From: Promethearchaeota archaeon
Lineage (GTDB): Archaea; Asgardarchaeota; Lokiarchaeia; Sigyniarchaeales; SOKP01
Assembly: GCA_048937405.1 (NCBI GenBank)
Contig: JBHLNF010000002.1
Span: 32,001 to 96,000, forward strand
Length of the DNA stretch: 64,000 nt
Direction: 5' to 3'
Shown: positions 29,235 to 51,676 of the stretch, one piece after another
How the letters are laid out: each line of letters begins with the position of its first letter
Position numbering within the stretch: position 1 is the first letter of the stretch
Notes under the pieces: model-generated
The model's database searches: none
What the model saw: only the letters and a program-made list of their open reading frames with translations
What the model was told of the DNA's origin: nothing
Program-made: the position numbers and the translations under genes

Positions 29235-30005
29235 ATGGAATTTGAACCAAAAATTTTGGGTTTTTTATGTAATTGGTGTTCCTATGCAGGTGCAGACCTC
29301 GCAGGAGTTAGTCGAATCCAATATCCTACTAATGTCAGAGTTATCCGTGTGATGTGTTCGGGTAGAGTAGATCCTGTATTTATAGCTGAAGCATTTATGA
29401 ATGGTATTGATGGAGTTCTTGTTTTAGGATGTCATTTAGGAGATTGTCATTATATAAGTGGAAATTATGAAGCAGAATTAAAAATGAAAATGTTAAGCAA
29501 AACATTAGCATTGATAAATTTTGCAGATCGAGTACGTCTTGATTGGGTTTCAGCATCAGAAGGAAATAGATTCGCTCAAATAGTTACTGATTTTACTGAA
29601 CATATCCGTAAATTAGGACCATCACCAGTTAAAGATGATAAATTAAAGAAAGAAATTCTGGATAATTTGAGTGCCACTAAATTTGCTTTATGTGATTCAC
29701 GTCTAAGAGCTTTAGTTGCACGTCAAAGGGAATTAACAACAGAGGGAAATGTATATGGGGACATAATTCCTATCGAAGAATTCGATGAAATACTTGATAG
29801 CGCTATTGAAAATGAGTTAATTCGTCATAAAATTTTAGAAAAAATTAAGAAAGAAGGAAAATCTGTTCCAGATATCGCAAAAGAAATTAAAGTAGAACCT
29901 CATAAGGTATTACAGCATATAGTAACTCTTCGAGCTCGCGGTTTAGTTGATCTCGATCAAATAAATGAAGAAATTCCCACTTTTATTTCGATTAAAGAGG
30001 TTTAG
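29235..30005 (+). CDS. mvhD: MvhD/FlpD [2Fe-2S] subunit with C-terminal winged-helix extension
   Basis: FLCNWCSYAGAD, RVMCSGR, GCHLGDCHY and WVSASEG motifs, plus a ~120-aa tail. Confidence 0.9.
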   Translation: MEFEPKILGFLCNWCSYAGADLAGVSRIQYPTNVRVIRVMCSGRVDPVFIAEAFMNGIDGVLVLGCHLGDCHYISGNYEAELKMKMLSKTLALINFADRVRLDWVSASEGNRFAQIVTDFTEHIRKLGPSPVKDDKLKKEILDNLSATKFALCDSRLRALVARQRELTTEGNVYGDIIPIEEFDEILDSAIENELIRHKILEKIKKEGKSVPDIAKEIKVEPHKVLQHIVTLRARGLVDLDQINEEIPTFISIKEV

Positions 30006-30007
30006 AT

Positions 30008-33000
30008 ATGGAAAAAATAGGATCAGTATTGGTTGTAGGTGGAGGGATTGCAGGAATCCAAGCTTCGATGGATTTAGCAGATTCAGGTTTTAAAGTCTAT
30101 TTAGTAGAATCATCGATGAGCATTGGAGGAGTTATGTCTCAATTAGACAAAACATTTCCTACTAATGATTGTTCAATCTGTATTTTGGCTCCTAAATTGG
30201 TTGCAGCAGGACGTCATGAAAATATCACGCTTTTGATAAATACTAATTTGGAAAGTGTTGAGGGAGATCCAGGGAATTTTAGTGTTAAGTTAAAACAAAC
30301 ATCTTTACTTTTAGATCAAGAAAAATGCACTGGTTGTGGAGTGTGCGCTCGAGAATGCCCAGTAGAAGCGATTGATTTTTTTAATGAGGGACTTTCAAAT
30401 AGAGCTGCAATCTCAGTTAAATTTCCACAAGCAGTTCCATTAGTTTTTTCAATTGATCAAGAATTGTGTATAGGATGTGGTTTCTGTAAAGGTGTATGCA
30501 AAGCTAAAGCAATAGATTATACATTAGAAGATAAATTTACCACCTTAAACGTTGGAGCTATTATATTAGCACTTGGATTTGATGAATATGATCCTGGTCT
30601 TTCGCAACATTATGGATACAGTAAATATTTGAATGTGGTTACCAGCATTGAATTTGAACGGATATTAAGTGCTAGTGGTCCACATTCCGGACTTATACTA
30701 AGACCGTCTGATGGAATTATTCCAAAAAAAATAGCATTCTTACAATGTGTTGGTTCAAGAGATAAAAAGCATGGAGCAGAGTATTGTTCATCTGTTTGTT
30801 GTATGTACACTGCTAAAGAAGCAGTAATTGCAAAAGAACATATGGAAATCATTGAACCAACGATTTTTTCGATGGATGTGAGGGCTGTTGGAAAAGATTT
30901 CGATAAATATATTGAACGTGCGCAAGATGAATATGGTATAAGATATATTAGAAGCAGAATATCAGACATTAAGGAAATATCAGATACAAAAGATTTAATT
31001 CTACACTATGAAAATGAAGATGGAAAAGTAGTTAGTGAGATTTTTAATCTTGTTGTTCTAGCAGTAGGCGCTTTACCACATCACAGCACTAAAATAATAG
31101 CAAAAAAGTTAAATATTGAATTAAATAATTATAATTTTTGCAAAACCAAACCGTTTTCACCAGTAGAATCATCTAGAGAAGGAGTCTATGTATGTGGTAT
31201 GATTTCAGAGCCTAAAGATATTCCAGAAACAGTTGTAGAGGCTAGTGCTGCCGCAGGTGTTGTAGATATTCTTTTATCCGATGTGAGAAATACGTTAATC
31301 ACTGAAAAAGAATTACCGAAAGAATTGGATACAAGTGGAGAACCCCCTCGGATAGGAGTCTTCATATGTCACTGTGGTATTAACATTGGAGGTGTGGTAG
31401 ATGTTCCTGAAGTTGTTGAATATGCGAATAAATTACCTGATGTAATTTATGCAGAAAGAAATTTGTATACATGTTCTGCTGATACACAAACCAATATTAA
31501 AGAAAAAATTAAGGAATATGATTTAAATAGAGTAATTGTTGCTTCATGTACACCAAGAACCCACGAACCTTTATTTCAAGCAACTATTAGGGAGGCGGGT
31601 TTAAATAAATATTTATTTGATTTAGCAAATATTCGAGATCAATGTTCTTGGGTGCATATGCATGAACCTGAAGAGGCGACAGAAAAAGCAAAGGATCTCG
31701 TAAGGATGGCTATAGCTAGAGCTCGAAAATTAGTTCCTCTTCAAGAACAACAAGTGGAAGTTATTCATAAGGGAATGGTAATAGGGGGAGGTGTAGCAGG
31801 TATGACAGCTGCCTTAACCCTTGCAAATCAAGGATTTGAAGTATTTCTCATTGAAAAAAGCGAAAAATTGGGAGGATTTTCCAATAATATTTACCAAACT
31901 ATAGAAAATCATGATGTTCAGACATTTCTTAAAGATTTAGTAAATAAAGTCAATAATCATAAGCTCATTAATATATTCCTCAACGCTAGAATTAATACAA
32001 TAGGTGGTTATGTCTGTAACTTTACAACAAATATAACATTTGGTGAAGATAAACAAAAAAAGGAATTTCGGCATGGTATTATTATAGTTGCTACTGGAGC
32101 CCATGAATATCAACCGAAGGAAGGTGAATTTCTTTTCGGTAAAGATGATAGAGTAGTTCTACAATCCGATCTAGAGAAAATATTATTTACTGATGAAGAA
32201 AAAATCAAGAAATTAAATTCAATAGCAATGATACAGTGCGTAGGTTCAAGAAATGAGGAACATCCTTATTGTAGTAGAATGTGTTGTAGTGAGGCTATTA
32301 AAAATGCCTTAAAAGCAAAAGAAATTAATCCAAATATTAATATTATGGTTCTTTATAGGGATATTAGAACATATGGATTTAAAGAAGAATATTACAATTT
32401 AGCTAGAGAAAAAGGAATAATTTTTCTAAGATTTAAAGAAGAAAAACCTCCAGAAATTAAATTAGAAAATGGTAACTTAAGTCTTTATATAAAAAAATCT
32501 GATATAGGGGATATCAAATTAGATGCTGATTTAGTTGCTCTAAGTGCAGGAATAGTTGCTGATGGCACAGCGAATGAAAATTTGGCAAAAATATTGAAAG
32601 TCCCAACCAATGATGATAAATTTTTCTTAGAGGCTCATGTAAAACTACGTCCATCAGATTTTGCAACAGATGGTATATTTTTATGTGGTACTGCTCGGGG
32701 AACAGCAACCATTAGGGAAAGCATAGCACAGGCAATGTCAGCAGCTTCCAGAGCTACTACAATTTTATCTAAAGATATTTTAATAACGGAAGGAGTTATT
32801 TCCAAGGTTGATCCTGCTTTATGTATTGGTTGTAATAGATGTGCTGAAGTCTGTAACTATGGGGCTGTTGGTGTAAAATATGAAGAAGGGTTAATGATCT
32901 CTGAGGTTAATCCTTTACTCTGTAAAGGTTGTGGAGATTGCGCTGCTGAATGCCCAGCTGAGGCTATAACAATGAGTCATTTTGGACGTATTCAAATTGA

Positions 33001-49065: not shown

Positions 49066-49743
49066 CTAATTGTTAACTATACTCTTTCCTTTTTCCAAAC
49101 CCAAATGCAAAGCTTTAATATTTTTATCTGGATCTCTCAACCATTCTTTAATTACTTCCTCATAATGCTCAATTTCTATAAAAGGTATCTTTTCTGTAGC
49201 ATGTGCAAATCCTAACATTATTAAGTTAACTTGTTGGTTTGAATTGAACTCATCTAAAGATAACTTAGTAGCATTCATAAAATATACTTCATGTGAGTAT
49301 CCTTTTAAAATTTCTTCAATTTTTTCTAAAGAAGGATATTTTTCGAGATCCGCAGTTATCATTATACCAGGAATTGTTCTTGAATTGAGTACAAATGCTG
49401 TTTTGTTAGAAGCAAAAATTCCTCTTCTTAACGCTTCCACAGGTTCAAAGCAAATATATAAATCCGCATCTCCATAACATATCAATGGTGAATGGAGGTT
49501 TTTTCTCTCATCTTCAAAAACTTCTTTCTGATATCTTGTATGACTGGTAATCGCTCCTTCGCGCTGTGCGAGCCCATGCATGTTTTGAATAAGCTTGAAA
49601 CAAGCTTATTATTCACTTCCAAAGGCTCGCTTTATTCCTGCTTTTTGAGCTGCGAACTCAATTAATCTCTTTAAAGTAATAACTCCCTGCCCGGCAGTTC
49701 CAGCTATTACTATATTTATTATATCTGTTTCTTTAAATTTCAC
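49066..49743 (-). CDS. iorB: Indolepyruvate:ferredoxin oxidoreductase beta subunit, interrupted by a 30-nt insert (spliced gene or pseudogene)
   Basis: GTG at 49743 gives MKFKETDIINIVIAGTAGQGVITLKRLIEFAAQKAGIKRAFGSE**ACFKLIQN MHGLAQREG. Removing 49582-49611 restores GSEMHGLAQR and a 215-aa protein. Confidence 0.85.
49582..49611 (-). other. 30-nt hairpin insert; candidate BHB-type mRNA intron
   Basis: UAAUAAGCUUGUUUCAAGCUUAUUCAAAAC has a perfect 10-bp stem with a 3-nt loop. The flanking exons pair (gcgagccu/gggcucgc). Confidence 0.6.
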
Positions 49744-51676
49744 GAAAAGGTACCTCTTCTGCTAATAAATTTATTATAGATTTATGTATTGCCCCATTTG
49801 GACAAATTTGGTAGCATACACCACATTTTATGCATCTATCTTGGTCAATTTGCATTTCTTCTATACCATTTGTTTCAACTCTTCTGATGGCGGGACAGCT
49901 TAAAATCCTTGCACATTCATAACACAATTGGCAACCAGCAATAAAATACGAAACATCTTGCACTCTTTTTCCTTCTCTTTCTAACGTTCTAATTTGTTCC
50001 ATTCGCCACCTATGTGCTTGAAGGCCACATTCTCTTTTAACAATGATTACCTTAAAACCATCTGTTTCTAATGCGTCTTCAATGGATTTTACAAGTTTTT
50101 TAGGATTATATGAATCTTCTACTCTTAACCAAGAAACTCCAATTGCTTTACATATATCTTCGATAGAAAATCCTTTATTTAATAAATATCTGAGAACATC
50201 ATTTTGATGTCCTGTCATTGCTGTCCATGAGTTTTCAAAAATGATTAGCAATACATTTGAATTATAACCTACTGCTTCAGCTAAAGGAGGCATACCAGTA
50301 TGGAAGAATGTAGAATCTCCTATCATAGCAATCACCTTTTGATCGGTTTTAGTAGACATCCCTATAGCAGCACTAATTCCACCGGACATACAAATCACCA
50401 AATCACTACATTGCTGTGGCGGAAAAAATGACATTACATAACACCCTATATCTCCGCTAATTATAGTGTTTTCTAGATGATTGGTAGCTTTTAATATTGC
50501 ATATAATGTAGCTCTCTCGGGACATCCAGTACAGAATGTAGGAAATCTGCTAGGTATTATATCTTTATAAGAATTAAAGTAATCAATAGCTTTATTCATC
50601 TGCTCATTAGGTGATTTATTAAAAATCTTCGCTAGACTTGTTGCTACTAATCCTGTAGAAAATTCATTGTATTTTGGAAAGTATTTTTCTCCTATAATCT
50701 CTACCTTAATCTTATGATTGTGGGCAATCTCTGCAATTTTCATTTCCAAAAATGGTTCTAATTCTTCAATTATAACTACTTTCTCAAGTTTCTCTATAAA
50801 ATTCACGATTTCTCCATAATTTAAAGGATATATCATTCCAAGCTTAAAAACTGGTACGTCTTCTAGAGCCAATTGATTCAGAGCTTCCATTGTATAACCA
50901 AATGGCATTCCACTAGTAATAATTCCAATTTTATTCTCTCCAGGAATTATTTTATTTACCCCTAGGTTTGGGATCGCTTCTCGAAGTTTTTCAATTCGCT
51001 CGTATAAGCGAATGTGATTATTGATTGCATGAGGAGGGAGAGAATTAAATTTAGGAATATTTCTAATGAATTCACCTTTAGCAATTCCTTTTACTAAAGG
51101 TTCAAGTTTTACAAAACCTCTTGAGTGTGCACTTCTAGTACTCATTCGAAAATTCATGACTAAATCATATTTCTGTGACAGTTCAAATGCGAGTTTAATC
51201 CAATCCTTGCATTCCTGTGGAGTATGAGGTTCAAAAGTGGGAAGGTGCAACATCCATGCATAAAAACGCTCATTTTGTTCTTGATGTGATCCTAAAGAAC
51301 CTGGATCAGAGCCAATTGAAACAACCATTGCTCCTGGATTTGGTCCATTTAATGCAATTACACTTAAGGCATCACTAGCAACATTTAATCCTACGTGTTT
51401 CATGGGATTTAAACTTTTACATCCTGTCCAAGCGGCGCCAGCACAAGCAGATGTCGCAACTGCTTCATTGACAGCCCAGTGATGGACTAAATATTCCCTA
51501 AATTCAGGACTATCTCTTAATGCTTGATGAAAGTATTCTCCAATATCACTAGTGGGAGTACCAGGATATTGAGAGACGTAAGATACACCTGCTTCGAGGC
51601 ATCCCCTTACGAGAGCCTCATTTCCAAGCATTAATACTCTACCTTCTTCCTTAGAAAAACGAATATCTTTAATCAT
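49733..51676 (-). CDS. iorA: Indolepyruvate:ferredoxin oxidoreductase alpha subunit
   Basis: LGNEA..RG, YPGTP, MKHVGLNVA.D, FC.GCP, GDIGC, IGDSTF.H.G and MTG.Q motifs; C-terminal ferredoxin. Confidence 0.93.
   Translation of the reverse strand: MIKDIRFSKEEGRVLMLGNEALVRGCLEAGVSYVSQYPGTPTSDIGEYFHQALRDSPEFREYLVHHWAVNEAVATSACAGAAWTGCKSLNPMKHVGLNVASDALSVIALNGPNPGAMVVSIGSDPGSLGSHQEQNERFYAWMLHLPTFEPHTPQECKDWIKLAFELSQKYDLVMNFRMSTRSAHSRGFVKLEPLVKGIAKGEFIRNIPKFNSLPPHAINNHIRLYERIEKLREAIPNLGVNKIIPGENKIGIITSGMPFGYTMEALNQLALEDVPVFKLGMIYPLNYGEIVNFIEKLEKVVIIEELEPFLEMKIAEIAHNHKIKVEIIGEKYFPKYNEFSTGLVATSLAKIFNKSPNEQMNKAIDYFNSYKDIIPSRFPTFCTGCPERATLYAILKATNHLENTIISGDIGCYVMSFFPPQQCSDLVICMSGGISAAIGMSTKTDQKVIAMIGDSTFFHTGMPPLAEAVGYNSNVLLIIFENSWTAMTGHQNDVLRYLLNKGFSIEDICKAIGVSWLRVEDSYNPKKLVKSIEDALETDGFKVIIVKRECGLQAHRWRMEQIRTLEREGKRVQDVSYFIAGCQLCYECARILSCPAIRRVETNGIEEMQIDQDRCIKCGVCYQICPNGAIHKSIINLLAEEVPFREI

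What the first reader, a model, noticed from the sequence alone, without database searches (positions are those of the whole stretch)
49560..49635. iorB is split by a 30-nt hairpin insert with bulge-helix-bulge geometry: candidate mRNA micro-intron in an Asgard metabolic gene
Seen: the insert UAAUAAGCUUGUUUCAAGCUUAUUCAAAAC (49611-49582) sits exactly between E and M of the conserved IorB motif GSExHGxAQR. It is a multiple of 3, starts with two ochre stops, and has a perfect 10-bp stem. The exons on either side pair with each other (GCGAGCCU / GGGCUCGC), using GC-rich codons that look atypical for this genome. In the joined mRNA the junction falls between positions 6 and 7 of a 7-nt loop (AGUGAA|A), the equivalent of the tRNA 37/38 intron site. 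Cutting after the second base of each 3-nt bulge (AA|U and AC|A) removes exactly these 30 nt and restores GSEMHG. Caveat: in that register the central helix AGUG/CAAA pairs only 2 of 4 positions. A second register has a perfect central helix (GAAU/AUUC) but would remove 24 nt and leave a UAA. Established: archaeal EndA/RtcB splice BHB introns, and a protein-gene example is known from crenarchaeal cbf5. Inference: this may be splicing-controlled expression of a metabolic enzyme, with productive and non-productive registers. Alternatives are ribosomal bypassing (GAA take-off, stop, hairpin) or a recent inactivating insertion. The rest of iorB and all of iorA look intact.
Basis: partly seen in the sequence, partly recalled or inferred. 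Interest (0 to 1): 0.92.

Follow-up and report, generated by a model that had tools for sequence, protein, structure and literature searches.

The report
tRNA-type mini-intron splits Asgard iorB
The iorB gene of this Loki-type Asgard archaeon is interrupted by a 30-base insert shaped like an archaeal tRNA intron; 17 related genomes keep it at the same spot with compensating base changes while the protein stays under selection, so the mRNA is very probably cut and rejoined by the tRNA-splicing enzymes, which papers I could search document inside a coding sequence for one archaeal gene only (cbf5).

Summary
A 30-nt insert (window 49582-49611, minus strand) with two ochre stops and a perfect 10-bp hairpin lies between Glu44 and Met of iorB.

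It is not an artefact or a pseudogene:
- 17 related Promethearchaeota (Loki-type Asgard) genomes carry 15 distinct 30/31-nt inserts at exactly this GAA|ATG junction. The 31-nt forms shift the frame.
- Scored only from protein-defined boundaries, 11 of 15 form a full 4-bp central helix flanked by two 3-nt bulges. Moving the cuts by one base gives 0 of 15.
- All three helices covary: 93% of cells pair against 19-49% when slid, and 10 pairs changed on both sides.
- Exon 2 has dN/dS of about 0.10, the same as intron-less orthologues.
- The genome encodes two EndA paralogues and RtcB.

Best reading (about 0.85): an EndA/RtcB-spliced pre-mRNA intron, ancestral in this lineage and precisely lost several times.

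Caveats:
- The window's own copy has a relaxed central helix (2 of 4 pairs).
- No RNA evidence could be obtained.

This scan has noted similar mini-introns in other Asgard genes, some in this genome. I checked one at sequence level and recovered a second in my scan.

The parts
49733..51676 (-). iorA (indolepyruvate/2-oxoacid:ferredoxin oxidoreductase alpha subunit), intact; overlaps the iorB start by 11 nt
   Evidence: 647-aa ORF. Pfam POR_N, TPP_enzyme_C and Fer4 domains.
49612..49743 (-). iorB exon 1: GTG start, 44 codons, ends with GAA (Glu44)
   Evidence: tblastn matches at 84-100% identity in orthologues.
49582..49611 (-). 30-nt BHB-type intron: first base U, then the hairpin, then CAAA and AC
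   Evidence: Homologous 30/31-nt inserts sit at the same junction in 17 genomes.
49066..49581 (-). iorB exon 2: begins with ATG (Met45 of the spliced protein), 171 codons plus stop
   Evidence: PF01558 at E = 1e-12, profile 29-173. dN/dS 0.04-0.25 between intron-bearing species.
49618..49630 (-). 5' strand of the exon-exon helix h (GCGAGCCUUUGGA)
   Evidence: Pairs with 49568-49580 at 11 of 13 positions. This helix is 95% paired across 15 sequences, with 2 pairs changed on both sides. RNAalifold recovers it independently.
49614..49617 (-). H1: exon strand of the central helix (AGUG, from the Ser43 codon plus the G of Glu44)
   Evidence: Pairs with the intron strand 49584-49587. It is 2 of 4 here and 4 of 4 in 11 of 15 orthologous introns. 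AGU to AGC in the exon covaries with A to G in the intron.
49611..49613 (-). 5' bulge AA|U; predicted cut between 49612 and 49611
   Evidence: Geometry fixed by the protein alignment. Across the 15 introns the bulge is AAU in 7, AAA in 7 and AAC in 1.
49588..49610 (-). Intron hairpin h': 10-bp stem with a UUU loop (9 bp plus a 5-nt loop in most relatives)
   Evidence: Seven of 9 pairs show changes on both sides across 15 sequences.
49584..49587 (-). H2: intron strand of the central helix (CAAA)
   Evidence: Relatives have CACU, CAUU, CGUU, CGCU, UACU, CAAU or CAUA.
49581..49583 (-). 3' bulge AC|A; predicted cut between 49582 and 49581 (the A of ATG)
   Evidence: The third bulge base is A in all 15 introns.
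49568..49580 (-). 3' strand of the exon-exon helix h (UGCAUGGGCUCGC)

Best explanation
The insert is an archaeal bulge-helix-bulge (tRNA-type) intron inside the iorB coding sequence.

Proposed mechanism:
- In the iorAB transcript the two exon ends pair with each other (helix h).
- Four exon bases (AGYG) pair with four bases near the 3' end of the intron (helix H).
- The rest of the intron forms a 9-10-bp hairpin (h').
- This leaves two 3-nt bulges on opposite strands.
- The splicing endonuclease EndA, here a two-paralogue and probably (alpha-beta)2 enzyme, cuts after the second base of each bulge.
- RtcB joins the exons, restoring GAA|AUG and the motif GSEMHGLAQR. The 30-nt intron is released, probably as a circle.

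Unspliced mRNA can give only a 44-residue peptide.

The intron was present in the ancestor of this group of Lokiarchaeia-type iorB genes and has since been lost precisely several times. After loss the exon helix mostly decays.

Shown here: the structure, its conservation and covariation, selection on both exons, and the presence of the enzymes. Inferred: the cleavage and ligation themselves.

In this genome and its sister G070 the central helix is relaxed (G-C and U-A pairs plus G.A and A.A mismatches). Splicing there would rely on the broad specificity reported for Asgard and crenarchaeal-type EndA.
For: 1. Recurrence. 7 of 19 orthologues in the genus and 8 further distinct variants carry a 30/31-nt insert at the identical GAA|ATG junction. 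That makes 15 distinct sequences in 17 independently assembled MAGs, which rules out an assembly artefact.

2. Frame. The 31-nt forms shift the reading frame, yet exon 2 stays open in every genome. Its dN/dS has a median of 0.10, against 0.11 for intron-less pairs. G000 versus G070 gives dS about 1.0 and omega 0.07.

3. Geometry scored only from protein-defined boundaries. H is 4/4 in 11, 3/4 in 2 and 2/4 in 2 of the 15 introns. Offsets of +/-1 give 0 of 15, and 0 of 2000 intron shuffles reach the observed pairing.

4. Covariation. 93.3% of cells pair, against 19-49% when partners are slid. Ten pairs changed on both sides, and 0 of 500 shuffles reach the covariation score (7-sequence version). 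H pair 3 is U-A in 12 and C-G in 3: a synonymous Ser AGU to AGC change matched by an intron A to G change. RNAalifold finds h and h' on its own.

5. Exon helix. It is 8-11 of 13 in the intron-bearing genes (10-11 in 14 of the 16 scored). Most intron-less genes have 4-9, with three at 10-11.

6. Machinery. Two full-length EndA paralogues are present, one closest to the catalytic chains of crenarchaeal heteromeric enzymes, and RtcB is present. Asgard EndA is reported as (alpha-beta)2 with the L1 loop that confers broad specificity (PMC5829648).

7. Precedent. The cbf5 intron shows the same pattern of ancestral gain with lineage losses, often with a relaxed motif (PMC2738675).
Against: - No RNA-level evidence. 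The one metagenome scan for the spliced junction returned only intron-less lineages.
- The window's own intron has the weakest central helix of the 15 (2 of 4 pairs, shared with G070). Cleavability of this particular copy is inferred from selection on the gene, not from the motif.
- RNAalifold does not predict H itself.
- All 15 copies keep ATG directly after the insert, which a split-gene model would also predict.
- The phylogenetically independent test linking the exon helix to intron presence has only 4 well-supported pairs and cannot reach significance.
Confidence: 0.85

Rival explanations
1. Split gene. iorB is expressed as two polypeptides: a fragment of 44 to about 52 residues ending at the stop in the insert, and a 171-residue fragment started at the conserved ATG, perhaps by termination-reinitiation. 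The two fragments then assemble. The RNA structure would serve only to bring the stop and the start together.
For: All 15 inserts are followed directly by ATG and contain a stop 0-8 codons into the insert. Both parts are under purifying selection, which this model also predicts.
Against: - None of the 15 inserts has a Shine-Dalgarno-like motif.
- The U of the ATG pairs in helix h, the G sits opposite a G, and the A lies in the 3' bulge.
- The model gives no reason for two 3-nt bulges exactly 4 bp apart, for exon-intron covariation in H, or for H pairing collapsing when the boundaries move by 1 nt.
- The break lies inside the conserved GSExHGxAQR motif.
- The peptide extensions read from the insert are not conserved.
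Confidence: 0.07
2. Translational bypassing. The ribosome takes off at GAA before the stop, slides over the hairpin and resumes at ATG, as in phage T4 gene 60.
For: In this genome a stop directly follows the last sense codon and a stable hairpin follows it.
Against: - No Glu (GAA/GAG) landing codon precedes the ATG in any of the 15 sequences. The codons there are AAC, AUA, UUA, UUG, UUC, UCU and UCA.
- In the G029-type 31-nt forms the stop lies 8 codons downstream, inside the hairpin.
- The model does not explain the exon-exon helix or the covariation in H.
Confidence: 0.03
3. Recent inactivating insertion (pseudogene) or assembly artefact.
For: Two in-frame stops interrupt the gene, and the insert is unique in the genome.
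Against: - The insert is present in 17 independently assembled genomes with diverged sequences.
- dS between carriers is about 1 or saturated, while omega is 0.04-0.25.
- There are no further stops or frameshifts in any exon.
- No close iorB paralogue exists in the genome. The best other hit is 30% identical.
Confidence: 0.02
4. One reading: two competing splice registers, a productive 30-nt removal and a non-productive 24-nt removal that leaves a UAA, tune IorB expression.
For: In G000 the alternative central helix GAAU/AUUC is 4/4.
Against: The alternative register pairs at only 1-3 of 4 positions in the other 14 introns, including 2 of 4 in the sister genome G070. It also competes with the 10-bp stem. 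It looks like a by-product of this copy's sequence.
Confidence: 0.04

Closest known systems
BHB intron in the cbf5 (pseudouridine synthase) pre-mRNA of Crenarchaeota (Watanabe 2002; Yoshinari 2006; Yokobori 2009, PMC2738675)
   Same: - A short BHB-flanked intron inside a protein-coding sequence.
- The host has a heteromeric splicing endonuclease with broad specificity.
- The motif is often relaxed.
- The distribution is patchy, explained by ancestral gain and later losses.
   Different: - A different phylum (Asgard/Promethearchaeota) and a metabolic gene rather than an RNA-modification gene.
- A very uniform 30/31-nt architecture (1 + 9 + 5 + 9 + 4 + 2) with a long exon-exon helix.
- Splicing of cbf5 was shown experimentally. 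Here it is inferred.
Archaeal tRNA introns with the hBHBh' motif at position 37/38 (Marck and Grosjean 2003, as cited)
   Same: - The same geometry: outer helix, 4-bp helix, two 3-nt bulges, inner hairpin, and cuts after the second bulge base.
- After splicing the exon helix closes a 7-nt loop, with the junction between loop positions 6 and 7.
   Different: The substrate is an mRNA. The outer helix is built from codons (Arg CGA, Ala/Val, and Gly-Leu-Ala) rather than from an anticodon stem.
BHB intron in the 5' UTR of Haloferax volcanii HVO_1309 (PMC7714728)
   Same: An mRNA substrate of the splicing endonuclease, confirmed there by circRNA-seq and in vitro cleavage.
   Different: It lies in the untranslated leader, is 46 nt long, and does not interrupt a reading frame.
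Heavily interrupted tRNA genes of Asgard archaea (PMC11291895; bioRxiv 10.64898/2026.10.13.758758)
   Same: The same lineage and the same enzymes. In this genome ARAGORN recognises only 14 tRNA genes, 9 of them with introns.
   Different: Those reports concern tRNA genes only. Neither describes introns in coding sequences.

Membership tests
Archaeal BHB (EndA-dependent) intron | [quoted passage not shown] | tested here: met
   With boundaries fixed by the protein alignment, H is 4/4 in 11 of 15 and 3/4 in 2 of 15. Offsets of +/-1 give 0 of 15, and 0 of 2000 shuffles reach the observed pairing.
Archaeal BHB (EndA-dependent) intron | The same feature in the window's own copy | tested here: inconclusive
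   The bulges are in place, but H = AGUG/CAAA pairs at only 2 of 4 positions (G-C and U-A, plus G.A and A.A). This is a relaxed motif, shared with G070.
Archaeal BHB (EndA-dependent) intron | At least one flanking helix (h from exons, h' from the intron) | tested here: met
   h is 11 of 13 and h' is 10 bp in the window. Both covary across 15 sequences.
Archaeal BHB (EndA-dependent) intron | Cutting after the second bulge base yields the functional product | tested here: met
   In silico, all 15 give GSE|MHG, identical to the intron-less orthologues that have Met at this site.
Archaeal BHB (EndA-dependent) intron | The host encodes the splicing endonuclease and the RtcB ligase | tested here: met
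   Two PF01974 hits above the cut-off, each with the N-terminal domain as well. RtcB scores 565 bits.
Archaeal BHB (EndA-dependent) intron | Excision seen in RNA (spliced junction or circular intron) or cleavage in vitro | not testable with these tools
The metagenome junction scan found only intron-less lineages.
Pre-mRNA BHB introns of the cbf5 type | Lies inside a coding sequence whose exons remain under purifying selection | tested here: met
   Omega for exon 2 is 0.04-0.25 (median 0.10) among intron-bearing pairs.
Pre-mRNA BHB introns of the cbf5 type | Patchy distribution consistent with gain and later loss | tested here: met
   At least 4 changes are forced by well-supported branches and 10 are needed on the best tree of 48 orthologues. 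Five are needed on the 24-row tree.
Programmed translational bypassing (T4 gene 60 type) | Matching take-off and landing codons | tested here: not met
   No GAA/GAG precedes the ATG in any of the 15 sequences.
IorB / POR gamma domain (PF01558) in an iorAB operon | A POR domain match, next to a TPP-binding IorA with ferredoxin domains | tested here: met
   PF01558 at E = 1e-12 for exon 2 (profile positions 29-173). iorA has POR_N, TPP_enzyme_C and Fer4.

The most novel reading that the evidence does not exclude
The iorB intron is one member of a genome-wide family of about 30-nt EndA/RtcB-spliced introns in protein-coding genes of Lokiarchaeia. Routine endonuclease-mediated pre-mRNA splicing would then exist in the closest archaeal relatives of eukaryotes. 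Such introns would be gained, inherited for long periods and precisely lost, possibly through spliced RNA intermediates. In this genome I confirmed at sequence level a second case with the same 1+9+5+9+4+2 build (AMP phosphorylase) and recovered a third (acyl-CoA mutase).
Probability: 0.6. Interest if true: 0.88.

Novelty: new member of a known kind. Interest (0 to 1): 0.78.

Why it matters
In the papers I could search, endonuclease-mediated splicing inside an archaeal coding sequence is documented for a single gene (cbf5, in Crenarchaeota), plus one 5'-UTR case in Haloferax.

Here a central catabolic enzyme of an Asgard archaeon can be made only if its mRNA is cut and rejoined. That requirement has been kept across species whose synonymous sites are saturated. 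This bears on several questions:
- how interrupted genes and RNA splicing were tolerated before the spliceosome;
- how introns are gained and precisely lost in prokaryotes;
- how transcription-coupled translation copes with unspliced messages.

There is also a practical point. Gene callers split or truncate such genes, so metabolic reconstructions of Asgard MAGs may wrongly score them as missing or broken.

Tried and rejected
- Spliced junction in metagenomes. One scan of metagenome contigs with the pattern TTGGAAGYGAAATGCAYGGNCT gave 12 contigs. All that are iorB belong to intron-less lineages (L073/L074-like at 89-97% identity, others at 78-79%). None matches the exons of an intron-bearing species, so no spliced cDNA was found.
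- Genome-wide census of BHB-broken ORFs in G000. Four versions were tried. In this 29% GC genome the real geometry gives no more hits than reversed or slid controls: 10,459 vs 10,562, 1,903 vs 1,861 and 1,811, and 131 vs 121-145. The scans cannot count introns. My first filter, modelled on iorB's long exon helix, wrongly suggested that iorB stands alone. I dropped that conclusion after checking a lead from earlier notes.
- A scan hit inside the window (29959-29993) is an ordinary gene junction, with TAG at 30003-30005 and the next ATG at 30008.
- Genus assignment of the additional intron-bearing genomes could not be obtained.
- The independent-pairs test of exon helix against intron presence is underpowered: 4 pairs, p about 0.125.

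Full report
**What is there**

On the minus strand of the window, iorA (49733-51676) is intact. It is followed, with an 11-nt overlap, by a gene of the POR-gamma/IorB family. After 44 codons (...AFGSE) that gene runs into TAA TAA. Exactly 30 nt later, in the same frame, it resumes with MHGLAQREGAITSH. The 30 nt (49611-49582) contain a perfect 10-bp hairpin and occur nowhere else in the 4.47-Mb genome. The 86-nt region folds at -30.2 kcal/mol (z = -4.6), and the fold includes an 8-bp GC-rich helix between the two exon ends.

**Comparative evidence**

I searched related genomes with the read-through protein. Seven of the 19 orthologues in the same genus are interrupted at the same codon boundary. 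A separate scan of one genome per species added eight more distinct variants. In total, 17 independently assembled MAGs, labelled Promethearchaeota/Promethearchaeia, carry 15 distinct inserts of 30 or 31 nt. All lie between GAA and ATG.

The 31-nt forms shift the reading frame. Read-through and in-frame tolerance are therefore excluded for them, yet exon 2 is open in every genome. Pairwise dN/dS of exon 2 among intron-bearing species has a median of 0.10 (range 0.04-0.25). Intron-less species give the same value (0.11). Synonymous divergence is about 1 or saturated, and G000 versus its sister G070 gives dS about 1.0 and omega 0.07. This is a functional gene that has carried the insert for a long time. 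It is not a pseudogene or an artefact.

**Structure**

I fixed the exon boundaries from the protein alignment alone and scored the canonical archaeal geometry by offsets:
- The four exon bases before the last two (AGYG) pair with the four intron bases before its last two.
- A 3-nt bulge sits on each strand.
- The intron hairpin (h') lies inside, and the exon-exon helix (h) lies outside.

The central helix is fully paired in 11 of 15 introns, 3 of 4 in two, and 2 of 4 in two (the window's genome and G070). Moving both cuts by one base gives 0 of 15, and none of 2000 intron shuffles reaches the observed pairing. The third pair of H is U-A in twelve sequences and C-G in three. That is a synonymous Ser AGU to AGC change in the exon matched by an A to G change in the intron.

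On the 15-sequence alignment, 93.3% of cells pair, against 19-49% when partners are slid. Ten of 24 pairs show changes on both sides, and no shuffle reaches the covariation score (7-sequence version). RNAalifold, run without my structure, recovers h and h' with nine compensatory pairs. It leaves the short H unpaired.

The exon-exon helix is 8-11 of 13 in the intron-bearing genes, and 10-11 in 14 of the 16 scored. In 32 intron-less genes it is 4-11, and mostly 5-9. Carriers use Arg CGA and matching Gly-Leu-Ala codons where intron-less relatives use AGA. The few intron-less genes that still have 10-11 pairs (L074, L073, L058) look like recent precise losses.

**History**

On trees of IorA plus IorB the intron is scattered. 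An early-branching lineage of the group (G029) has it, and both main clades mix carriers and non-carriers. Well-supported branches force at least four changes, and the best 48-row tree needs ten. Because the inserts are clearly homologous, the simplest reading is one ancestral gain and repeated exact losses, which is the pattern described for cbf5 (PMC2738675). A test on phylogenetically independent pairs points the expected way: the exon helix goes with the intron in about 3.7 of 4 pairs. With only four pairs it cannot be significant.

**Machinery**

The genome encodes two full-length EndA paralogues. One is closest to the catalytic chains of crenarchaeal heteromeric enzymes. RtcB is also present. 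Published work assigns Asgard archaea the (alpha-beta)2 enzyme with the L1 loop that gives broad substrate specificity (PMC5829648). ARAGORN recognises only 14 tRNA genes in this genome, which is rated 100% complete, and nine of those have introns. That fits the heavily interrupted Asgard tRNA sets described in PMC11291895 and in the 2026 preprint. The cell therefore depends on this splicing pathway in any case.

**Rivals**

- Split gene with re-initiation at the conserved ATG. It would explain the selection on both parts and the ATG. It would not explain the exact 3-4-3 geometry, the exon-intron covariation, the lack of any Shine-Dalgarno-like motif, or the burial of the ATG at the foot of helix h.
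- Bypassing. It lacks a landing codon in all 15 sequences.
It rests on a helix that is 4/4 only in this genome.

**Limits**

I could not obtain RNA evidence. The window's own copy is one of the two with the most relaxed motif, so its cleavage is inferred from selection on the gene rather than from the motif.

**Context**

Earlier notes of this scan, which are AI notes and which I used only as leads, report similar mini-introns of about 30 nt in other Asgard genes. Several are in this same genome. My own motif-first scans cannot provide a census, because real and control counts are equal.

I did check one lead at sequence level. The AMP phosphorylase gene at G000 C28:498455-498484 reads DKHST, then a 30-nt insert, then GGVPGNK. 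The insert has H = UAGC/GUUA and a perfect 9-bp hairpin but no exon helix. The scan also recovered the acyl-CoA mutase site at C15:3033-3063. So iorB is probably one of a family in this genome.

In the papers I could search, splicing inside an archaeal coding sequence is documented only for cbf5, plus a 5'-UTR intron in Haloferax.

**Verdict**

This is a new member (new phylum, new gene) of a known but very rare kind, and it awaits RNA-level proof.

Noticed in passing
G000 C28:498455-498484 (+), about 402 kb beyond the window end: The AMP phosphorylase gene reads DKHST, then 30 nt, then GGVPGNK. The insert has central helix UAGC/GUUA (4/4), a perfect 9-bp hairpin with a 5-nt loop, and no exon-exon helix. 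It has the same 1+9+5+9+4+2 build as the iorB introns.
   Followed up: partly
G000 C15:3033-3063 (+): A 31-nt BHB-flanked insert (H = AUGG/CUGU) lies between long coding frames. I did not examine it further.
   Followed up: no
whole genome G000: ARAGORN finds only 14 tRNA genes in a genome rated 100% complete, and 9 of them have introns (12-46 nt, at positions 30-38). Most tRNA genes are probably too interrupted to be recognised.
   Followed up: no
L074, L073, L058 (intron-less iorB orthologues), around position 1500: These genes lack the intron but still have 10-11 of 13 pairs in the exon-exon helix and keep ATG after GAA. They look like footprints of recent, exact intron loss.
   Followed up: partly
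L037:1560-1590 (G067 intron): The 5' strand of its hairpin matches the G004 intron and the 3' strand matches the G029 intron, leaving a weaker 6+2-bp stem. It could be an intermediate state or a recombinant.
   Followed up: no
window 29959-29993 (+): A BHB-like motif hit between two long ORFs is a false positive. It is an ordinary gene junction, with TAG at 30003-30005 and the next ATG at 30008.
   Followed up: yes
L042-L051 record titles: Close iorB relatives at 82-90% identity (L042 and L045 are genus-g1 genomes G070 and G016) are deposited as Odin-, Hod-, Thor- and Hermodarchaeota as well as Promethearchaeota. The submitter labels are inconsistent.
   Followed up: no
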